Virus record (IMG/VR): IMGVR_UViG_3300005805_000485
Location: 1 to 24,170 of that record
Strand: one strand, 5' to 3'
DNA: 24,170 nucleotides
DNA from: a virus
Taxonomy: Duplodnaviria > Caudoviricetes
Shown: in pieces, positions 677-14,445 of the stretch
Numbering within the stretch: position 1 is the first letter of the stretch
Layout: the number at the start of each line of letters is the position of its first letter
Notes under the pieces: generated by a model
What the model was told of the DNA's origin: nothing
Seen by the model: the letters and a program-made list of their open reading frames with translations, nothing else
Databases searched by the model: none
Translations under genes and position numbers: made by a program

Positions 677-1070
677 AGTCTGCGTCTGTATAAGTAATTA
701 GTCCGTTAGGTGAGTAATATAAATATTTGCCTTCATTCTCTTCTTGTGTCTTTAATGTATGGTGTGGCACGCATAAGCTTTGAAACAAATTGTTTTTAAA
801 TTTATTAGCATCTTGCCTATGCGGAAATATATGATCAATTGCAACCGCCTGAACAACTTTGCCTTCTAAAAGACAAGCCTGGCATAAAGGCGTTTTACTT
901 AATTGAACTAATCTTTGTTTTTTCCAATAAGCCGTTGAATATAGCTTGCTATTCTCTTTGTCTTTTTGTGTCTTTTCGCCCCCATGAATACTACAAAAGG
1001 CGGATCGACTTGTTTTAAGATTATTGCAACCTAATTCCCGACATTTATCATTGACGGGCGTATAAGGCAT
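633..1070 (-). CDS. HNH endonuclease (packaging-associated type)
   Basis: CxxC (CQAC), DHIFPH, NLFQSLCVPHHTLKT, and an N-terminal Cys/His cluster (CRELGC...FCSIH) typical of phage HNH genes near terminase. Confidence 0.85.
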   Translation of the reverse strand: MPYTPVNDKCRELGCNNLKTSRSAFCSIHGGEKTQKDKENSKLYSTAYWKKQRLVQLSKTPLCQACLLEGKVVQAVAIDHIFPHRQDANKFKNNLFQSLCVPHHTLKTQEENEGKYLYYSPNGLITYTDADYGQALNQTKSAQNI

Positions 1071-1474
1071 TAATCTAAAAAGGTTAGCTTATACATTGTG
1101 GCTTCTACAATACTTAATAAGGCATCAACTTCATTTTGTAAACTTGTATAATCGCCAACAACTGACCTGTTAGCCACAATAAAATCTCTGATAGATGTTA
1201 CTTCTTGGAGCGCATCCGATTTAGGTGGCTCATACATATTTGGATATTCTACAATCTTTTGATATGCGCCTTGATATTGCTCTATGATCGTATCCACCGC
1301 ATCAGGTAGTTTTTCATAATAACCTTGTAGGGCTTTATGCTCTGCATAAGATTTAGTTTGTAAATGCAATAAATGAGCGTTTGTAGCGGCATGAAGTAAT
1401 TTTAAAAAGAATTCGCCAATAGTAACGCCTGGCAATACTACTTCAGCTTCTTTAATTGAGTATATTTTTTTCAT
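1070..1474 (-). CDS. Ferritin/Dps-like four-helix bundle protein (DUF5856-like)
   Basis: HLLHLQTKSYAEHKALQGYYEKL...DTIIEQYQG resembles the Dps ferroxidase-centre pattern (H...H...D...E). C-terminal 'YKLTFL' is typical of phage Dps-like proteins. Confidence 0.7.
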   Translation of the reverse strand: MKKIYSIKEAEVVLPGVTIGEFFLKLLHAATNAHLLHLQTKSYAEHKALQGYYEKLPDAVDTIIEQYQGAYQKIVEYPNMYEPPKSDALQEVTSIRDFIVANRSVVGDYTSLQNEVDALLSIVEATMYKLTFLD

Positions 1475-7447: not shown

Positions 7448-7890
7448 ATGGGGCTTATTCATATAAAGAAAGAAATAATGTCGTAAATATAGCTGAAGTA
7501 TTGTTTGAAGCTTATTGCCAATCTAAAGGTTATTTTTATAGAAGATTAGGGTTTGATGAGAAAAACGATCCTATACCTAATTTTTATAATATTAATCCTA
7601 TGATTAGAAACCTTCCCGACTTTTATATTAATAATAAAGGTGTGGCTGGATTGGTTATGGTAAAGGGAACGGCCAATATAAAGCAAAGCGAAATTAGATT
7701 ATTGCCACAATTTTTGGAATGGTATGATTCAAAAGAATGCCCTTTAATCTATGCATTTTGTTTTAAAGATCAAAAACCATTATTGCTATTTCCTGAAAAA
7801 GTTATATTTTTGTATGACAAATCAACTGATCAACAATGGCATGACGGCGTAACTTATAGAAACTTAAATTTAAACAAGGAAACTATATGA
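7444..7890 (+). CDS. Hypothetical protein, possible PD-(D/E)xK nuclease fold
   Basis: AEVLFE helix, LPDF, then LVMVKG where ExK is expected. Confidence 0.5.
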   Translation: MNGAYSYKERNNVVNIAEVLFEAYCQSKGYFYRRLGFDEKNDPIPNFYNINPMIRNLPDFYINNKGVAGLVMVKGTANIKQSEIRLLPQFLEWYDSKECPLIYAFCFKDQKPLLLFPEKVIFLYDKSTDQQWHDGVTYRNLNLNKETI

Positions 7891-8546
7891 AATTAGAAGA
7901 TAGAATTATTAGAGGTATAGAGCAGGGATCACCCGAATGGATGGCTTTAAGAATTGGCCGCATAGGTGGTAGTCGCATGGCTGATCTTTTAACTGAAGGC
8001 AGATCAGGCGAATCTTTAACACGCCGTAAATATAAAAATGAGCTTATAAGAGAAAGATTGACAGGTAAAAAATTAGATACCTATAAAACACCTGCTATGC
8101 AACGAGGAATAGATTTAGAGCCAATGGCTAGGGCATGGTATGAAGTCCATTATAATACCTTTGTGGATCAAGTAGCCATTGTTTTGCATCCTACTATTGA
8201 AGGTGGCCAATGCTCACCTGACGGCCTAGTTGGCAATAATTCTTTAATTGAGATCAAAATACCCAATCCTGAAAACCACCTAGATAATATCCTAACAGGT
8301 GGCAAACAATTAGAGCAATATTATGACCAGGTAATGTGGCAATTAGCCTGTATGCCTGAAAGAGAATTTTGCGACCTTATATCTTATGATCCTGATATGC
8401 CTGATCATTTACAAGGATTCGTGAAGCGTATTTATCGAGATGATGAATATATAAAAATGATGGAAGATAAGGTGATCTTATTCTTACAGGAAATAGAAAC
8501 TACTGTTAATAACTTAAAGGAAATTAAAAATGGCAATAACCCATGA
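7887..8546 (+). CDS. YqaJ-like viral recombinase / lambda-exonuclease family
   Basis: QGSPEWMALRIGRIGGS, AMQRGIDLEPMAR, CSPDGL, IEIK, YYDQVMWQL motifs. Confidence 0.92.
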   Translation: MKLEDRIIRGIEQGSPEWMALRIGRIGGSRMADLLTEGRSGESLTRRKYKNELIRERLTGKKLDTYKTPAMQRGIDLEPMARAWYEVHYNTFVDQVAIVLHPTIEGGQCSPDGLVGNNSLIEIKIPNPENHLDNILTGGKQLEQYYDQVMWQLACMPEREFCDLISYDPDMPDHLQGFVKRIYRDDEYIKMMEDKVILFLQEIETTVNNLKEIKNGNNP

Positions 8547-8757
8547 TTTAATCGCTAAAACAGGCGAATACACTAACGCTAATGGCGAAACAAAAGCTAG
8601 ATGGACTAAAGTCGGCGTGGCTATGAGCAATAAACAAGGTGGAACTTCACTTTTGATCGAAAGTATCCCTGTCAATTTTGACGGCTGGGTAACTATGAGA
8701 GAGCCGCAACCAAAACAAGGTGGTGGCGCAGAGGATAAAACTGACCTACCATTTTAA
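8530..8757 (+). CDS. Putative small single-stranded DNA-binding protein
   Basis: Beta-rich 'GEY...GETK.RW..VG' core and SSB-like C-terminal tail (EDKTDLPF); follows the ERF and exonuclease genes. Confidence 0.55.
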   Translation: MAITHDLIAKTGEYTNANGETKARWTKVGVAMSNKQGGTSLLIESIPVNFDGWVTMREPQPKQGGGAEDKTDLPF

Positions 8758-8833
8758 TGATTTTACTGATGGCATGAGCCATAATGTAGCCCATAATGAA
8801 GTTGCAATATTTTTTTAATTTAAGGGGCATATT

Positions 8834-8905
8834 ATGTGGACAACTCCATCAGCTACAGAAATGAGATTTGGCTTTGAAGTTACGATGTATGTAATGAATA
8901 AGTAA
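8834..8905 (+). CDS. pqqA: Pyrroloquinoline quinone (PQQ) precursor peptide PqqA
   Basis: Hand translation MWTTPSATEMRFGFEVTMYVMNK* (23 aa). Has the W-x-x-P leader, 'R.GFEVTMY' with the invariant E-x-x-x-Y core, and correct length. SD AAGGGG at 8822-8827; terminator downstream. Confidence 0.95.
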   Translation: MWTTPSATEMRFGFEVTMYVMNK

Positions 8906-8932
8906 TGATCATAGTAACAGATTGTTATTAGT

Positions 8933-8968
8933 AAAAAAGAAGGGGCTTAATTGCCCCTTTTTTATTTT
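8933..8968. terminator. Rho-independent terminator, probably bidirectional
   Basis: AAAAAAG-AAGGGGC-TTAATT-GCCCCTT-TTTT: GC stem with an A-tract before and a T-tract after, located between convergent operons. Confidence 0.85.
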
Positions 8969-8969
8969 G

Positions 8970-9098
8970 TGTAATATATATTACATTTTTTAAATTAATC
9001 AAAAAATAAAAGACTAATTTGTAAAATTAAGTTATTGATTTATTTAGCAAAACAATCATTTTTAAACTGAACAAAATGTAAAGTATATTATACATTTT
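8970..9098. repeat. Pair of related AT-rich palindromes in the convergent intergenic region
   Basis: Perfect 16-bp palindrome TGTAATATATATTACA (8970-8985) and AAAATGTA-N10-TACATTTT (9073-9098). Confidence 0.5.
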
Positions 9099-9162
9099 AA
9101 TGGTTAATAGACGCTAAAAATGCCTATATTAACCATGATAATATATAATATCAATTATGAGA

Positions 9163-9890: not shown

Positions 9891-10079
9891 CTAATTAATG
9901 ACATGGCGCTCGATAGCCATAAACAAACTGTCGCTAGAAGATATATAGCAGATAGAACCATCAGATAATAAAATAACCAAATAATTTTTATTATCGTGGT
10001 AATCAGCATCAATATCTTTGATTGTTTTATTTTGTAGAAAATTGAAAATGTCATCAATGGTTTCATGGGAAGTTTGCAT
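9891..10079 (-). CDS. Hypothetical protein
   Basis: Co-oriented, overlaps the upstream stop, natural amino-acid composition. Confidence 0.55.
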   Translation of the reverse strand: MQTSHETIDDIFNFLQNKTIKDIDADYHDNKNYLVILLSDGSICYISSSDSLFMAIERHVIN

Positions 10080-10506
10080 TTAAATTTTCAATCACTATTT
10101 CAGGATTAACAAATTTGTTAGCATCATGCTCTGTATCTTCCCACCATAAAAATTGATTTTCAACTAAATTGCTTCTATCTTTTAGTAAATTTATATTTTC
10201 AGGATGTCCAAAGATCAGAGGATCAGAAACCGACCATAGAACTATACCATATTTTTTACGATCCCATGCAAAATGTTGAAAAAAAGAATCGCAACTTATC
10301 CATGTTCGGCATTGATCTACAAGCTTTCCTAACTCATCTAGTGATAAATTTTTTCTAAAATCATCTACTAATTGTTGTTCGCCTTCAATGCCAACTTGAA
10401 CTATTGGTTCTTTAATTAGTCTAATTAGTTCCTTCCAATAAGGATAATTTTTAGCATTAGTCTTGCCGCTTTTTAAAGTTTTAGAATATGGGCTAATGAT
10501 AATCAT
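10063..10506 (-). CDS. Glycosyltransferase family 9-like (heptosyltransferase-like) C-terminal domain protein
   Basis: KNYPYWKELI, LSLDEL..LV, ISCDSFFQHFA, IVLWSVSDP..FG correspond to GT9 motifs K-x-W-P, DSG-x-x-H-x-A and LFGPT-x-P. Confidence 0.65.
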   Translation of the reverse strand: MIIISPYSKTLKSGKTNAKNYPYWKELIRLIKEPIVQVGIEGEQQLVDDFRKNLSLDELGKLVDQCRTWISCDSFFQHFAWDRKKYGIVLWSVSDPLIFGHPENINLLKDRSNLVENQFLWWEDTEHDANKFVNPEIVIENLNANFP

Positions 10507-11477
10507 AAATATAACTTTCTATAAGCATCTTCTAAACTACCTTTCCATTTCCATTGATACATTTTAATATAAATATTCCATGTATCAAGATCACCAAATA
10601 AAGCATGAGCTTCAGCAATAGAACGACCAGGCACTATTTCAGGAAAGCAAGTAAATATTTCAGGATTTTTAATGTAGGGTAATACGCGCTTAAATATTAT
10701 ATGATCGCCCATGCCGCCATTTAATATCACAATAGTTTTATCGCTATAATTAATGAGATTATTAAATACAGTTTCATCTTGGCCGTAAAGAATTTCATTG
10801 GTTTCACTTCTAATACCGCCATTAGGATTTTTAAAATGCCAAGTATTAGCATTAGGAACGGCTAATATTTTATAGCCTTTTTTAAATAGCCCATAAGTAA
10901 ATAAAGTTTCCTCTCTATGCGCTACTCTTGAAAGCCCTAAATGATAATTATGCACGCCAGCACGATAAAGAAAAGAACAATGAAGATGCTCAACTTCTTT
11001 AACCTTATCAATAAATGACCATTGAATATTAGGTTCTCTATTAATAAGTTCTATTTTGCCTGTAGGTTTTTCATTATTAGAATTGACAGGGAAAGGCGGC
11101 GTTAAAATTGCACCGCCTATTGCGCCTACATTTTTATGAGTGTAATTAAAAAGATTCTGTAAAACATTAGGTTCGGGAATAGCATCATCATCAACGCGCC
11201 ACACCCAATCAAAGCCCATGCCATTAGCCATTTGATGTATATAATGCTGGCCTTTTTTATGCGCATAAACCCATTCCCATTTAATGCCTTTAATATTAAG
11301 CATTTGGAAAAAATAGCTATAAACCAATTCATTCCGCATATCTTGTGGCTCATCATTGTCATCAAAAATAACTAGCTTATCAACTTTTTTTGTTTGATTA
11401 ATAACAGCATTAAGCGTTAAAGGTAAGGTCGTATGATAACGACCACGAGTTGCTATTGAACATAAGACACTAGCCAC
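10503..11477 (-). CDS. Glycosyltransferase family 2 (GT-A) with C-terminal GT9-like N-domain
   Basis: N-terminal 'SIATRGR...L.AVINQT...LVIFDD', DxD motif (RVDDD) and REET acceptor-region motif. C-terminal 'IVILNGGMGDHI' resembles the GT9 G-x-G-D motif. Confidence 0.8.
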   Translation of the reverse strand: MASVLCSIATRGRYHTTLPLTLNAVINQTKKVDKLVIFDDNDEPQDMRNELVYSYFFQMLNIKGIKWEWVYAHKKGQHYIHQMANGMGFDWVWRVDDDAIPEPNVLQNLFNYTHKNVGAIGGAILTPPFPVNSNNEKPTGKIELINREPNIQWSFIDKVKEVEHLHCSFLYRAGVHNYHLGLSRVAHREETLFTYGLFKKGYKILAVPNANTWHFKNPNGGIRSETNEILYGQDETVFNNLINYSDKTIVILNGGMGDHIIFKRVLPYIKNPEIFTCFPEIVPGRSIAEAHALFGDLDTWNIYIKMYQWKWKGSLEDAYRKLYL

Positions 11478-12099
11478 GATCCCACCTCATAATCATAAGA
11501 TTAAATTTATTATGCTCATTAATTTCAGGCAAAGTTTCTGAAATAAATCCATGCTCATTAATATAATTGTATTGAAAATCAGGAAAGTGTGATTCGTTTA
11601 AGTTATGAAGTTTATGATGCTCGCCCCAAAATCCTACAGGCTCATTATGTGGTGTGGTTAATAGAAGGCGCTTACAATGTTGCTTTAGTTTTTGTGCTAT
11701 CTCTAATCCATTATCAATATGTTCAATTAATTCAAAAGCAATAATGGTGTCATATTGTTGAAGCGGATAAGTATTAATATCTGCATTCACAAAAGATACA
11801 TTTTCATTCCATTCTTGTTCTTGAGCGACTTGAATAATAACAGGATCGTAATCTAGTCCTATATAGTTTGCATCATTTGGAAGGAATTGAGAGCCGTAAC
11901 CTGTTGAGCAACCTATTTCAAGAATATTCTTGCCTAATAGATTGCGGTTAGCCCAAAGATAACGAGTGGCTTCTCTAGGAAATACGGGATCGCCTTTGAG
12001 AAAAACCGCTCGCTCATAATTATTTGTCAATAAAAATCTATAATAATTTTTATCATGCTTTTTAAAGTATGGCAAAGCATCTTGTATTGTCTTATCCAT
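11470..12099 (-). CDS. Class I SAM-dependent methyltransferase
   Basis: ILEIGCSTGYG (motif I), YIGLD, ADI, YDTIIAFELIEHI, LLLTTP. Confidence 0.88.
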   Translation of the reverse strand: MDKTIQDALPYFKKHDKNYYRFLLTNNYERAVFLKGDPVFPREATRYLWANRNLLGKNILEIGCSTGYGSQFLPNDANYIGLDYDPVIIQVAQEQEWNENVSFVNADINTYPLQQYDTIIAFELIEHIDNGLEIAQKLKQHCKRLLLTTPHNEPVGFWGEHHKLHNLNESHFPDFQYNYINEHGFISETLPEINEHNKFNLMIMRWDRG

Positions 12100-12108
12100 G
12101 ATTGTCCT

Positions 12109-14445
12109 TTAAATTGGATATATAGCTAACACCCTATCACCTGAAGCTAATGCTAATGTTGTAAATGTAGTGCCACCTGATACTGTGCAATCAACGCCAT
12201 TTACAAATATAACACCATTTACTGAAATTTGTATTTTATTTGCAGTATATGAATTTGTAGTTGTAAATGATGTTTGACCAGCAGTTGCAGTATAAGAATT
12301 ATATATCATTGAAGGCACGCCGATATTAACTGTGTTATAAGCAATTGCTTCAACAACATCGTTAAGTGTCGCACCTGTCGCTAATGTAAATGATGTGCCA
12401 TTAGTTGCAGTATAATCTGCACCTACACCTGATTTTAGGAAAGTTCCATTTTTATAAACTTCTAAAAAGCCAACAACATAATTAACTGTAAATACAGTCT
12501 GACCAGCCGTAGCGCTAAATTGTGTTCTTACATAAGTTGCATTTGGAGCTACACCACTAAAACCTGAATATCCTGAAAAGCCTGATATACCTGATGCCCC
12601 ACTAAAGCCTGACAAACCTTGTGCGCCTGTTGCTCCACTAAAGCCTGATATACCTGAAAATCCACTAAATCCACTAGCACCTTGAGCGCCTGTAGCACCG
12701 CTAAAACCACTTAATCCACTTGCACCTATAGCTCCGCTAAAGCCTGAAAAACCACTTATGCCTGAAGCACCTTCAGCACCGCTATAACCGCTATACCCAC
12801 TAAATCCGCTCGCACCATTAGCGCCACTAAATCCTGATATACCTGACGCACCATTGATACCGCTATAACCTGATAGGCCTTGCTCGCCGCTATAGCCACT
12901 ATAGCCTGAATAGCCCGATAAACCTTGTGCGCCAATTTGACCTGAAAAGCCACTATAACCACTAATACCTTGCTCGCCACTATAGCCTGAAAACCCACTA
13001 ATACCTGAAGCACCATTAGCACCGCTGAAACCACTAATACCTGATGCGCCATCTTGGCCACTATAGCCACTTAAACCTTGTTCGCCACTATAACCGCTAT
13101 AACCGCTATATCCACTTATACCTTGAATGCCTTGTTGGCCACTATAACCGCTGATACCGCTCGCACCTTCAGCGCCACTAAATCCGCTATAACCACTAAA
13201 GCCACTATAGCCGCTAAAGCCTGATACACCATTCACTAAAGCAAATATTAAATTATTGCCATTAGAAAAGCCTGAAGTGCCTGTGCCTGCGCTTGAAACT
13301 AAAGTAACAGGATATTCCCAATAAGCAGTAGAAGTGCCTGGATTATAATGAATAGGTGTGCCACTAATTTCCCAAGTTTGAGAATTAGCACTTGAAGTTT
13401 TATCTTGAATAACAAATTGTTCGGTTTGTGTTAATAATGCTAAATAAATATCAATATCATCATTATTTTTATCAAGATGCGAAACATTAATTGCAGTCGC
13501 ACTTATTTGAGTTGCATTATTCCAAGATAAATAACCATTGCCTGGATAACCTGAAGTTGCAGTTGTATTAGCATCATATTCAAAAAAGCTTGATGATGAG
13601 CCTGGTGTTCCGCTAAATCCGCTATAACCTGAATAACCTGATGCACCACTAAACCCTGATAAACCTGAAGCACCGACTTGACCGCTAAAGCCACTAAAAC
13701 CACTTAAGCCTGATAAACCTACTTCACCTGAATAGCCACTAAAGCCTGATAAGCCTGAAGCACCATCTTGGCCTGAATAACCACTTAAACCATTGATACC
13801 GCTGAAGCCACTATAGCCTGATGCACCTGATTCACCTGAATAACCACTAAATCCACTTATACCTTGTGGGCCTATAGCGCCTGAATAGCCACTAAAGCCA
13901 CTAATGCCTGAAGCGCCGACCTCACCACTAAACCCGCTGAAACCTGATATACCACTTGCGCCATTTTGACCTGAATATCCGCTTAATCCATTAATACCTG
14001 AATAACCGCTGAAGCCTGATTCGCCGCTCCAACCGCTAATTCCTGAAAAGCCTGATGCGCCATTTTGACCTGATATACCGCTAAATCCTGACCAACCGCT
14101 AATACCGCTATCGCCTGAATAACCGCTAATGCCACTAGCGCCTGATGTGCCACTAAAGCCGCTTATACCACTTGCACCTGAATAACCTGATATACCTGAC
14201 CAACCGCTTATGCCACTTGCGCCGCTATAACCTGATATACCTGAAAAACCTGAATAGCCACTTATGCCACTAAAACCGCTAGTGCCAACACCACTAAAAC
14301 CTGAATAGCCTGAATAACCTGAATAGCCTGAAAATCCTGAAGCGCCTTGCACTCCACGATCAATTGTAATTTCAGTTGTAGAAGTAGGCGTTACTTCTAC
14401 TGTTATATTGTTGCTATCAACAACATCAATAGAATAATTAGCCAT
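12109..14445 (-). CDS. Gly-X-Ser repeat (collagen-like) virion fibre protein
   Basis: Two long blocks of G-X-S triplets (X mostly F/Y/I/A/L) flanking a ~120-aa globular domain; C-terminal tandem 'ATAGQT-x-F' beta modules; located in the tail region. Confidence 0.8.
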   Translation of the reverse strand: MANYSIDVVDSNNITVEVTPTSTTEITIDRGVQGASGFSGYSGYSGYSGFSGVGTSGFSGISGYSGFSGISGYSGASGISGWSGISGYSGASGISGFSGTSGASGISGYSGDSGISGWSGFSGISGQNGASGFSGISGWSGESGFSGYSGINGLSGYSGQNGASGISGFSGFSGEVGASGISGFSGYSGAIGPQGISGFSGYSGESGASGYSGFSGINGLSGYSGQDGASGLSGFSGYSGEVGLSGLSGFSGFSGQVGASGLSGFSGASGYSGYSGFSGTPGSSSSFFEYDANTTATSGYPGNGYLSWNNATQISATAINVSHLDKNNDDIDIYLALLTQTEQFVIQDKTSSANSQTWEISGTPIHYNPGTSTAYWEYPVTLVSSAGTGTSGFSNGNNLIFALVNGVSGFSGYSGFSGYSGFSGAEGASGISGYSGQQGIQGISGYSGYSGYSGEQGLSGYSGQDGASGISGFSGANGASGISGFSGYSGEQGISGYSGFSGQIGAQGLSGYSGYSGYSGEQGLSGYSGINGASGISGFSGANGASGFSGYSGYSGAEGASGISGFSGFSGAIGASGLSGFSGATGAQGASGFSGFSGISGFSGATGAQGLSGFSGASGISGFSGYSGFSGVAPNATYVRTQFSATAGQTVFTVNYVVGFLEVYKNGTFLKSGVGADYTATNGTSFTLATGATLNDVVEAIAYNTVNIGVPSMIYNSYTATAGQTSFTTTNSYTANKIQISVNGVIFVNGVDCTVSGGTTFTTLALASGDRVLAIYPI
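12553..13230 (-). repeat. Coding 9-bp-period repeat block 2 (Gly-X-Ser)
   Basis: Degenerate 9-bp periodicity, e.g. ccactatag/cctgaaaag units on the + strand. Confidence 0.85.
13600..14355 (-). repeat. Coding 9-bp-period repeat block 1 (Gly-X-Ser)
   Basis: Degenerate 9-bp periodicity encoding GFS/GYS/GIS/GAS triplets. Confidence 0.85.

What the first reader, a model, noticed from the sequence alone, without database searches (positions are those of the whole stretch)
8834..8905. Phage-encoded PqqA: a stand-alone cofactor-precursor peptide as an auxiliary metabolic gene
Seen: a 72-bp gene, absent from the ORF track, encoding MWTTPSATEMRFGFEVTMYVMNK with strong SD and terminator, and no pqqB-E in the window. 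Known: PqqA is the ribosomal precursor whose Glu and Tyr (E-x-x-x-Y) are cross-linked by PqqE/PqqD and processed to PQQ, the cofactor of methanol dehydrogenases (MxaF/XoxF). One peptide is consumed per PQQ. From memory this sequence closely resembles Methylophilaceae PqqA. Inference: the phage infects a methylotroph and supplies only the stoichiometric substrate of the host pathway to boost PQQ and methanol oxidation during infection. I recall pqqA being noted in freshwater viral metagenomes, so novelty should be verified, but I know of no functional test.
Basis: partly seen in the sequence, partly recalled or inferred. Interest (0 to 1): 0.88.

Follow-up and report, generated by a model that had tools for sequence, protein, structure and literature searches.

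The report
Phage pqqA with host PQQ-regulon promoter
This lake phage of methanol-eating bacteria carries an intact 23-codon copy of pqqA, the peptide that the host uses up to make the cofactor PQQ, behind a DNA box that also precedes the host's own PQQ genes, so the phage likely lets a host regulator switch on extra PQQ precursor during infection.

Summary
Confirmed. 8834-8905(+) encodes a true PqqA (Pfam 41.3 bits, TIGR02107 38.5, both above cut-off) with SD and terminator; pqqB-E are absent. The phage is a relative of cultured P19250A. It is not a chimera: 61 of 63 informative relatives keep the gene at this site, with dN/dS about 0.07. Viral pqqA was published in 2020 (Lake Baikal), and this scan has found it before on other DNA (115 notes, at least 94 genomes), so the gene alone is not new. 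Not found in my searches: a 17-bp palindrome at 8754-8770, the best match in the whole window. The same box precedes host pqqA copies, the pqq(A)B operon (30 of 30) and a PqqU-like receptor, but not methanol dehydrogenase (0 of 25) or metK (0 of 30). Hosts put the strong box near -65; this phage family puts it near -41. Across Betaproteobacteria the box goes with one NarL-family two-component system (blind set 13 of 17 versus 5 of 32), in three genomes directly beside pqqA. Best reading: a host-regulated cassette that supplies PQQ precursor. Expression, regulator binding and benefit are untested.

The parts
8754..8770 (+). 17-bp palindromic 'PQQ box' (TTAATGATTTTACTGAT; host consensus CT[AC]ATGA-WWW-TCAT[TG]AG); overlaps the stop codon of the upstream gene; predicted activator site centred near -41
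   Evidence: Best site of a host-trained matrix in all 24,170 nt (14.3 bits); 66 of 66 same-site carriers have it and both non-carriers lack it
8792..8797 (+). -10-like hexamer CATAAT, 21 nt after the box
   Evidence: spacing of 21-22 nt in 46 of 50 distinct same-site upstream regions
8821..8827 (+). Shine-Dalgarno TAAGGGG, 6 nt before ATG
   Evidence: sequence
8834..8905 (+). pqqA, 23 codons, E15-x3-Y19
   Evidence: identical to 2 host copies and one residue from the commonest host peptide (88 of 142 rows)
8936..8963 (.). Bidirectional intrinsic terminator shared by the rightward recombination operon and the converging leftward operon
   Evidence: present directly after the upstream stop in relatives that lack pqqA (L287, L338)
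8530..8757 (+). Context: 75-aa gene, SSB-like by position and acidic DLPF tail (inference; no Pfam match)
   Evidence: conserved in relatives
7887..8546 (+). Context: YqaJ-like exonuclease of the Erf-YqaJ recombination operon; used as anchor to collect relatives
   Evidence: PF09588
9163..9360 (-). Context: last gene of the converging leftward operon (tail genes, methyltransferase, glycosyltransferases, HNH)

Best explanation
The window carries an intact, host-type pqqA in a small cassette (PQQ box, -10, SD, gene, terminator) at the end of the recombination operon of a P19250A-like phage, and this cassette likely makes the infected Methylophilaceae cell produce extra PqqA that the host's PqqB-E would turn into PQQ. 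Shown: the gene, its conservation, the lack of pqqB-E, and a box shared with host pqq promoters at a fixed distance from a -10 hexamer. Inferred: (1) a host NarL-family response regulator (G001 545654-546292, with a HAMP-PAS-HisKA_3 kinase) binds the box and activates transcription; (2) the phage places one strong site at the promoter-proximal position near -41, where hosts have only a weak second site, which would lower the activation threshold; (3) read-through from the recombination operon may add transcripts; (4) PqqA is the only consumed, short-lived part of the pathway, so a 72-bp gene is the cheapest way to keep PQQ, and hence PQQ-dependent methanol oxidation and energy supply, running during infection.
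For: Gene. Retention: 61 of 63 relatives with YqaJ at least 75% identical and at least 700 nt downstream. One of the two losses (L287) keeps the pqqA 3' tail, so it is a secondary loss. Selection: pooled dN/dS 0.072 over 40 distinct coding sequences at this site, with E15 and Y19 invariant in a set chosen by YqaJ and not by the peptide. Repeated carriage: 9 cultured Methylophilales/Methylophilaceae phage records from several families, about 2400 estimated IMG/VR stretches, and at least four gene contexts among 80 loci, none with pqqB-E or xoxF. Dosage: hosts hold 3-5 pqqA copies, 3 even in a 1.3-Mb genome; 3-12 copies against one pqqB-G set (PMC4109929); PqqA made 20-fold above PqqC/E (PMC2294125). 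Box: found de novo in 122 host upstream regions; 60 of 100 viral upstream regions pass the 95th percentile of dinucleotide shuffles (mean 7.9 against -0.05 bits). pqq(A)B 30 of 30, methanol dehydrogenases 0 of 25, metK 0 of 30. Held-out Betaproteobacteria 51 of 121, at GC up to 0.71 and mostly the same 44-45-nt gap. Weak -35: at most 3 of 6 in 95 of 102 host and 25 of 30 viral proximal promoters. Regulator co-occurrence: 12 of 12 against 0 of 12 in genomes I chose; 13 of 17 against 5 of 32 in a blind set (Fisher 8e-5). Order kinase-regulator-box-pqqA in 3 of 12 loci.
Against: No binding or processing was tested. Overexpression studies suggest PqqA alone raises PQQ only modestly (PMC7936290; PMC9851590 names PqqB/C as possible limits). 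The box is not upstream of xoxF/mxaF, so a link to methanol flux is indirect and needs spare apo-dehydrogenase. 41 of 100 viral upstream regions have only a weak box, and MEP402 has none within 170 nt. The window's own -35 matches 4 of 6, so it may not need an activator. Co-occurrence counts include related genomes and incomplete MAGs; 4 box-positive genomes lacked the regulator. The box core resembles a Fur operator (window 12 of 19).
Confidence: 0.64

Rival explanations
1. The peptide is turned into PQQ, but the benefit is not methanol flux. PQQ would act as a redox protectant during infection, serve other quinoproteins, or be released and reused through the PqqU-like importer.
For: The box marks pqq genes, a PqqU-like TonB receptor (487 bits on NF041535, below its cut-off of 1200) and a PQQ-catabolism-type beta-propeller, but not xoxF/mxaF. 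One non-methanol PQQ dehydrogenase locus has it (L504). A LysR-family gene recurs near host orphan pqqA copies (10 hits in 80 loci), and the G001 protein that resembles it by eye scores best as OxyR.
Against: Methanol dehydrogenase is the main PQQ user in these obligate methylotrophs (established knowledge; PMC4109929 lists XoxF and pqq genes as core). Viral copies are dominated by the Methylophilaceae peptide type (105 of 116).
Confidence: 0.14
2. The cassette pays off outside the lytic burst, as a moron in a lysogen or long-lived carrier state, where a host-regulated promoter makes most sense.
For: Own host-type promoter and terminator; 29 of 70 IMG/VR loci with both neighbours have pqqA antisense to both, so it is often transcribed independently.
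Against: No integrase or repressor among the 42 window proteins scanned (the window is 24 kb of a probably 38-kb genome). T4-like phages carry it too (Melnitz; 10 of 80 loci).
Confidence: 0.09
3. The box is a repressor site (Fur-like, or the candidate regulator acting negatively), or the cassette mainly titrates a host regulator or PqqD, with PQQ supply secondary.
For: The proximal box overlaps the -35 region. Its core resembles a Fur operator, and Fur is present in 5 of 5 hosts.
Against: Real Fur-like operators at feoA and at a TonB receptor (15 of 19) score 0.6 and 0.4 bits on the PQQ matrix. The fixed 44-45-nt spacing and weak -35 fit activation. One box per cassette is a poor sponge, and the peptide is near-identical to the host's rather than a decoy variant.
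Confidence: 0.08
4. Neutral passenger, integration-site remnant or assembly chimera.
For: Hosts hold several near-identical copies, which makes pick-up easy; two relatives lack it.
Against: Same site in cultured P19250A. A contig of run X2 (same study as the likely source) spans 7800-8984 with no difference, and a contig from another study (X4) spans 8380-8879. dN/dS 0.07. Phage-type codons (Arg11 AGA in 24 of 40 against CGT in 117 of 120 host copies) and at least 6 of 72 nt from any host copy sampled.
Confidence: 0.02

Closest known systems
Viral PqqA of Lake Baikal population VP_266 (Coutinho et al. 2020, PMC7678222; passages read)
   Same: Virus-borne pqqA in phages of Methylophilaceae, proposed to boost methanol oxidation
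   Different: That was an uncultured T4-like virus also reported to encode methanol dehydrogenase. Here a P19250A-like tailed phage carries pqqA alone. The paper states that P19250A encodes none of those genes, yet P19250A has an unannotated pqqA (95.7% identical). No promoter element appears in the passages read.
Orphan pqqA copies of Methylophilaceae chromosomes (PF08042/TIGR02107; PMC4109929, passages read)
   Same: Same or near-identical peptide, stand-alone layout with SD and terminator, same upstream box
   Different: Host promoters have the strong box near -65 plus a weak site 23 bp closer (103 of 104 strong cases at a 43-45-nt gap); this phage family has one strong box near -41
Cyanophage pstS/phoA genes under host PhoR-PhoB control through pho boxes
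   Same: An auxiliary metabolic gene wired to a host two-component system by a copied host operator
   Different: Different pathway, host and regulator family. Here the gene product is a consumed substrate rather than an enzyme or binding protein, and neither box nor regulator was found described in my searches.
LuxR/NarL-family regulators of PQQ systems: AgmR/ErbR and PedR2/EraR of Pseudomonas; MxbDM, MxcQE and MxaB of Methylorubrum (PMC12997753, PMC6115532; passages read)
   Same: Two-component control of PQQ-linked genes; AgmR is thought to regulate the pqq operon
   Different: Orthology of the candidate regulator to any of these was not tested. No binding motif for them appeared in the passages read. 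The box here is absent from methanol dehydrogenase promoters.
Cyanophage psbA (D1) (recalled)
   Same: Phage supplies only the high-turnover part of a host energy pathway
   Different: psbA has expression and fitness data; phage pqqA has none that I found

Membership tests
PqqA (PF08042 / TIGR02107) | Score above curated cut-offs | tested here: met
   41.3 against 21.1 bits; 38.5 against 20 bits
PqqA (PF08042 / TIGR02107) | Glu-x-x-x-Tyr core in a 23-29-aa peptide (PMC2294125) | tested here: met
   E15, Y19, 23 aa; both invariant in 40 distinct same-site coding sequences
PqqA (PF08042 / TIGR02107) | Located in a pqqABCDE operon (canonical form) | tested here: not met
   No pqqB-E in the window; same as the orphan host copies, so it does not bar membership
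PqqA (PF08042 / TIGR02107) | Cross-linked by PqqD/E and converted to PQQ | not testable with these tools
   Peptide identical to 2 host copies makes it likely
Auxiliary metabolic gene | Host-derived metabolic gene flanked by viral genes on a real viral genome | tested here: met
Auxiliary metabolic gene | Kept under purifying selection in phage lineages | tested here: met
   61 of 63 retention; dN/dS 0.072
Auxiliary metabolic gene | Expressed during infection | not tested
   Only small-share RNA runs were found; none was laid on the stretch
Auxiliary metabolic gene | Changes host metabolism or phage fitness | not testable with these tools
   needs infection experiments
Activator-dependent promoter of a NarL/LuxR-family response regulator | Palindromic site at a fixed distance from -10, with a weak -35 | tested here: met
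   the window's own -35 is 4 of 6
Activator-dependent promoter of a NarL/LuxR-family response regulator | Cognate regulator co-occurs and is linked to targets | tested here: met
   the paralogous regulator does not separate the two groups
Activator-dependent promoter of a NarL/LuxR-family response regulator | Direct binding and activation | not testable with these tools
   needs EMSA, footprint and reporter
Fur operator | Matches the Fur consensus and shares a matrix with iron-uptake operators | tested here: not met
   Window 12 of 19 against a recalled consensus; feoA and TonB-receptor operators (15 of 19) score at most 0.6 bits on the PQQ matrix
Phage attachment site duplicating a host gene | DNA identity to the host target and an adjacent integrase | tested here: not met
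   At least 6 of 72 nt differ from sampled host copies; no integrase match in the window

The most novel reading that the evidence does not exclude
Phages of the dominant aquatic methylotrophs repeatedly captured pqqA together with the operator of an undescribed betaproteobacterial PQQ-regulon two-component system, and rewired it. Moving the strong site from about -65 to about -41 makes a hair-trigger promoter that reads the host's PQQ demand and floods the host pathway with its one consumed substrate. This would be a virus tuning a ribosomal-peptide cofactor pathway through a host sensor, and the phage copies reveal the regulator and regulon of PQQ synthesis in these bacteria.
Probability: 0.4. 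Interest if true: 0.8.

Novelty: new variant of a known kind. Interest (0 to 1): 0.58.

Why it matters
OM43 and Methylopumilus-type methylotrophs are abundant in coastal and fresh waters, and their phages are in culture. The gene sits unannotated in nine cultured phage records, and natural pqqA-less variants exist, so the 2020 proposal that viruses boost methanol oxidation becomes directly testable. The shared box and candidate two-component system name the parts for asking how PQQ synthesis is controlled in Methylophilaceae and other Betaproteobacteria, which also bears on industrial PQQ producers. Peptide plus box also give a host-prediction marker for an estimated 2400 viral sequence stretches.

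Tried and rejected
Chimera: rejected; the depth spike over 8805-8938 comes from other pqqA copies with loose ends on both sides. Acinetobacter 'phage' hits are chromosome contigs with a full pqqB-E operon and were dropped. 'Every cultured phage carries it' is not established: NCBI taxonomy lists 9 further Methylophilales/Methylophilaceae phage taxa (MEP431-434, HIM624-A, pHIMB624-A, Venkman EXVC038S, MG-MTP1, RSA-MFP1) that one search did not return, and I could not tell absence from the collection from absence of the gene. Fur as the regulator: not supported. TetR: none found in G001 or G022. The second NarL-type regulator (G001 803105) does not separate box-positive from box-negative genomes, and the LuxR loci retrieved for G025 show no close match to it (36% best). 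A plain IUPAC pattern for the box was no more frequent genome-wide than its reversed control; the signal depends on position and on the matrix. TIGR03866 loci were too mixed and were not scored. No special RNA structure over 8800-8975 (z -1.63). No fold, complex prediction or tree was run; 23 residues are too short.

Full report
1. It passes both curated PqqA models (PF08042 41.3 bits against 21.1; TIGR02107 38.5 against 20). An SD (TAAGGGG, 8821-8827) lies 6 nt upstream and a terminator hairpin called on both strands lies at 8936-8963. The gene ends a rightward Erf-YqaJ-SSB-like operon and faces a leftward block of tail, glycosyltransferase and HNH genes. 'SSB-like' is my inference from position and acidic tail. 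tblastn with host PqqB-E and XoxF finds nothing in the window, in 80 IMG/VR pqqA loci, in 80 YqaJ-anchored loci or in 6 GenBank loci; the control finds PqqB-E in 13 of 80 host loci. These loci are at most about 5 kb each side, so pqq genes elsewhere in those genomes are not excluded.

2. Phage and host. The nearest GenBank phage is P19250A (81.7% identity over 47% of the window), which is syntenic and has an unannotated pqqA at the same site. Runs that hold the stretch are mostly lake and freshwater metagenomes. A pattern for this peptide type in GTDB genomes returned Methylophilaceae-type names in most of the 80 titles shown; the rest were unresolved labels and one MAG named Acidovorax. The window peptide is identical to 2 of 142 host rows and one residue from the commonest (88 of 142). 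The host is therefore very likely a freshwater Methylophilaceae of the Methylopumilus/LD28 kind (inference).

3. Not a chimera, and under selection. Of 80 loci anchored on YqaJ, 14 had under 700 nt downstream (5 of these still show pqqA) and 3 had YqaJ under 75% identical (one has pqqA elsewhere). Of the remaining 63, 61 carry pqqA at the same site. These are related populations, not independent genomes: 40 distinct coding sequences. The two non-carriers run from the upstream stop to the terminator, and L287 keeps the 3' tail found after pqqA in six carriers, so it is a loss. Pooled Nei-Gojobori dN/dS is 0.072 (codons 2-9: 0.24; codons 10-23: 0.026; host copies 0.034), with E15 and Y19 invariant. 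A contig of run X2 (same study as the likely source) spans 7800-8984 with no difference; a contig from another study (X4) spans 8380-8879 with 16 differences.

4. Distribution. tblastn against 50,697 phage records gave 12 hits: P19250A, Venkman, MEP301, MEP401, MEP402, four Melnitz records, one Manatee Spring record and two Acinetobacter contigs that are chromosomal. None is annotated as PqqA. In the six viral regions I opened, the gene is either uncalled or shadowed by an opposite-strand CDS. Nine other named methylophage taxa did not appear, so the denominator is open. An exact FGFEVTMY pattern returned 120 IMG/VR stretches from 4 of 64 parts (about 2400 estimated); all 120 read as intact 23-25-aa peptides. 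The core is fixed by the pattern there, and variants such as FGFEVTLY are missed. Among 80 loci with flanks: 25 antisense to a YqaJ block, 11 after a major head gene, 10 in a T4-like replication block, 4 like the window and 30 other. This points to several acquisitions or moves (inference; no tree).

5. The upstream box. De novo motif search on 122 non-redundant host pqqA upstream regions gave a 17-bp palindrome, CT[AC]ATGA-WWW-TCAT[TG]AG. The host-trained matrix scores 60 of 100 viral upstream regions above the 95th percentile of dinucleotide shuffles (mean 7.9 against -0.05 bits). At 8 bits or more it hits 73 of 116 IMG/VR upstream regions against 28 of 1729 other 250-nt windows of the same loci (those windows are mostly coding, so the shuffles are the better control). 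In the window the best site of all is 8754-8770 (14.3 bits; next 12.1). All 66 same-site carriers have it and both non-carriers lack it. P19250A, Venkman, the Manatee record, MEP301 and Melnitz score 12.9-19.1; MEP402 has none within 170 nt. Geometry differs. Of 122 host regions, 101 have the strong site 43-45 nt before a -10-like hexamer (centre near -65), 2 fit both spacings, 1 neither and 18 are weak; a degenerate second site lies 23 bp closer. Of 100 viral regions, 25 have the strong site 21-22 nt before -10 (centre near -41), 15 host-like, 5 both, 14 other and 41 weak. In this family 46 of 50 distinct upstream regions are of the proximal type. A -35 is mostly weak (at most 3 of 6 in 95 of 102 host and 25 of 30 viral proximal cases), though the window's is 4 of 6.

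6. What the box marks in hosts. In the whole 1.27-Mb chromosome of Ca. Methylopumilus universalis (G001), 8 intergenic sites exceed 14 bits against 0.6 expected. They are three pqqA copies (circular: G001 copies were in the training set), pqqBCDE (19.9), a PQQ-catabolism-type beta-propeller (16.4), a PqqU-like TonB receptor (14.2), a formate dehydrogenase divergon (14.1) and one unexplained site in what I take by eye to be the atp operon (15.5) (names; the propeller and receptor are below their family cut-offs). Eight further sites above 14 bits fall in coding sequence. Across the family the box lies within 550 nt of pqqB in 30 of 30 loci (mostly with pqqA between; directly before pqqB in L426, L431, L433, L434), in 0 of 25 methanol dehydrogenase loci and in 0 of 30 metK loci. 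As a held-out test, 51 of 121 pqqA promoters of another peptide type (mostly other Betaproteobacteria) carry it at 12 bits or more, mostly at the same 44-45-nt gap and at GC up to 0.71, so it is not an AT artefact. It is a PQQ-synthesis box, not a general methanol box. Fur is present in these hosts, but its apparent operators at feoA and a TonB receptor score 0.6 and 0.4 bits.

7. Candidate regulator. G001 has three LuxR-family regulators. The one at 545654-546292 (REC plus GerE) follows a HAMP-PAS-HisKA_3 kinase and is 78-100% conserved in five Methylophilaceae. An ortholog at 51-70% identity is present in 12 of 12 box-positive and 0 of 12 box-negative genomes that I picked (best 43%). In a blind set of 49 genomes (50 of the remaining 97 loci) it is in 13 of 17 box-positive and 5 of 32 box-negative genomes (Fisher p 8e-5, not corrected for kinship). 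Four of those five exceptions show a degenerate box in the usual register, judged by eye. The four box-positive misses are MAGs of 1.8-2.6 Mb. In 3 of 12 ortholog loci the order is kinase, regulator, box, pqqA, twice followed by a PqqU-like gene. The paralog at 803105 does not separate the groups. Binding is inferred, not shown.

8. Mechanism. Established: PqqE with PqqD cross-links Glu and Tyr of PqqA, one peptide per PQQ, and PqqA is made 20-fold above PqqC/E (PMC2294125, passages; PMC12997753, passages). Methylophilaceae hold 3-12 pqqA copies against one enzyme set (PMC4109929, passages; 3-5 in five genomes here). Inferred: the phage adds one more copy under the host's PQQ regulator, in a layout that would need only one bound dimer, to keep PQQ synthesis and quinoprotein respiration going. 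Against: pqqAB overexpression gave +29% PQQ against eightfold for the whole operon in Acetobacter (PMC7936290, passages), and whole-operon overexpression gave a limited gain in Methylovorus (PMC9851590, passages). Extra PQQ helps only if apo-enzyme is available. No expression evidence was obtained. Confidence 0.64; rivals are other uses of PQQ (0.14), benefit in a carrier state (0.09), repression or decoy (0.08) and neutral or artefact (0.02).

9. What is known. Viral pqqA is in print: Lake Baikal VP_266 (PMC7678222, passages), which also says P19250A lacks these genes, and reservoir sediment viruses (PMC13188868, passages). Term searches of the main texts on MEP301, Melnitz, Venkman and MEP401/402 found no pqqA (PMC8024684, PMC9004378, PMC8163748, PMC10580990; 'PQQ' once, as a medium ingredient). 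Their supplements and the P19250A paper were not seen. Searches for a pqqA promoter motif or regulator in these bacteria (listings and abstract starts, plus passages of PMC12997753 and PMC6115532) showed no description of the box. The library omits most subscription papers, including Ge et al. 2015 on Methylovorus pqqA promoters (seen only as a reference), which may bear on it. This scan noted phage pqqA 115 times in at least 94 genomes. Word look-ups for the box returned none, but one note mentions 'host-type control signals' without detail (e1-6348447). The pho-box-controlled cyanophage genes and psbA are recalled analogies.

10. Verdict. A real, selected auxiliary gene of a published kind, with a regulatory layer I did not find described. 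New variant of a known kind; interest 0.58.

Noticed in passing
window 10063-12099 (-): Class I methyltransferase, GT2 glycosyltransferase and a weak GT9-like gene directly after the collagen-like tail fibre gene; syntenic genes in P19250A are all annotated hypothetical.
   Followed up: no
window 1070-1474 (-): DUF5856 / phrog_858 'starvation-inducible' protein next to an HNH gene.
   Followed up: no
window 12109-14445 (-): 778-aa tail fibre with long G-x-S-G-x-S collagen-like repeats and a raised GC content.
   Followed up: no
window 8964-9160: AT-rich spacer after the terminator that varies among relatives (joints skipping 179-364 nt).
   Followed up: no
L001:4046-4702 (P19250A_0031): Annotated as diguanylate cyclase/phosphodiesterase, but 89% identical to the window's YqaJ exonuclease.
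   Followed up: yes
L007 (CAKLQF020000010.1): Record deposited as Acinetobacter phage MD-2021a is a chromosomal contig with fur, ppk and pqqB-E.
   Followed up: yes
L279 and L292, between the SSB-like gene and the box: Insertions of about 140-160 nt; in L279 a short hydrophobic ORF. The box and pqqA stay intact behind them.
   Followed up: partly
G001:443341 (L374:3341) and G001:1202990 (L412:2990): Box-like sites (13.9 and 13.4 bits) upstream of a rhodopsin gene and a cytochrome b561 gene; possible wider regulon or chance.
   Followed up: partly
L005:382-460 (MEP402): A 13.2-bit box about 240 nt upstream of pqqA, followed by a near-consensus sigma-70 promoter.
   Followed up: partly
L176:189-3579 and other host orphan-pqqA loci: A LysR-family gene (10 hits in 80 loci) and a 732-aa gene that looks by eye like catalase-peroxidase (4 hits) lie near some host pqqA copies; a hint at an oxidative-stress link.
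   Followed up: no
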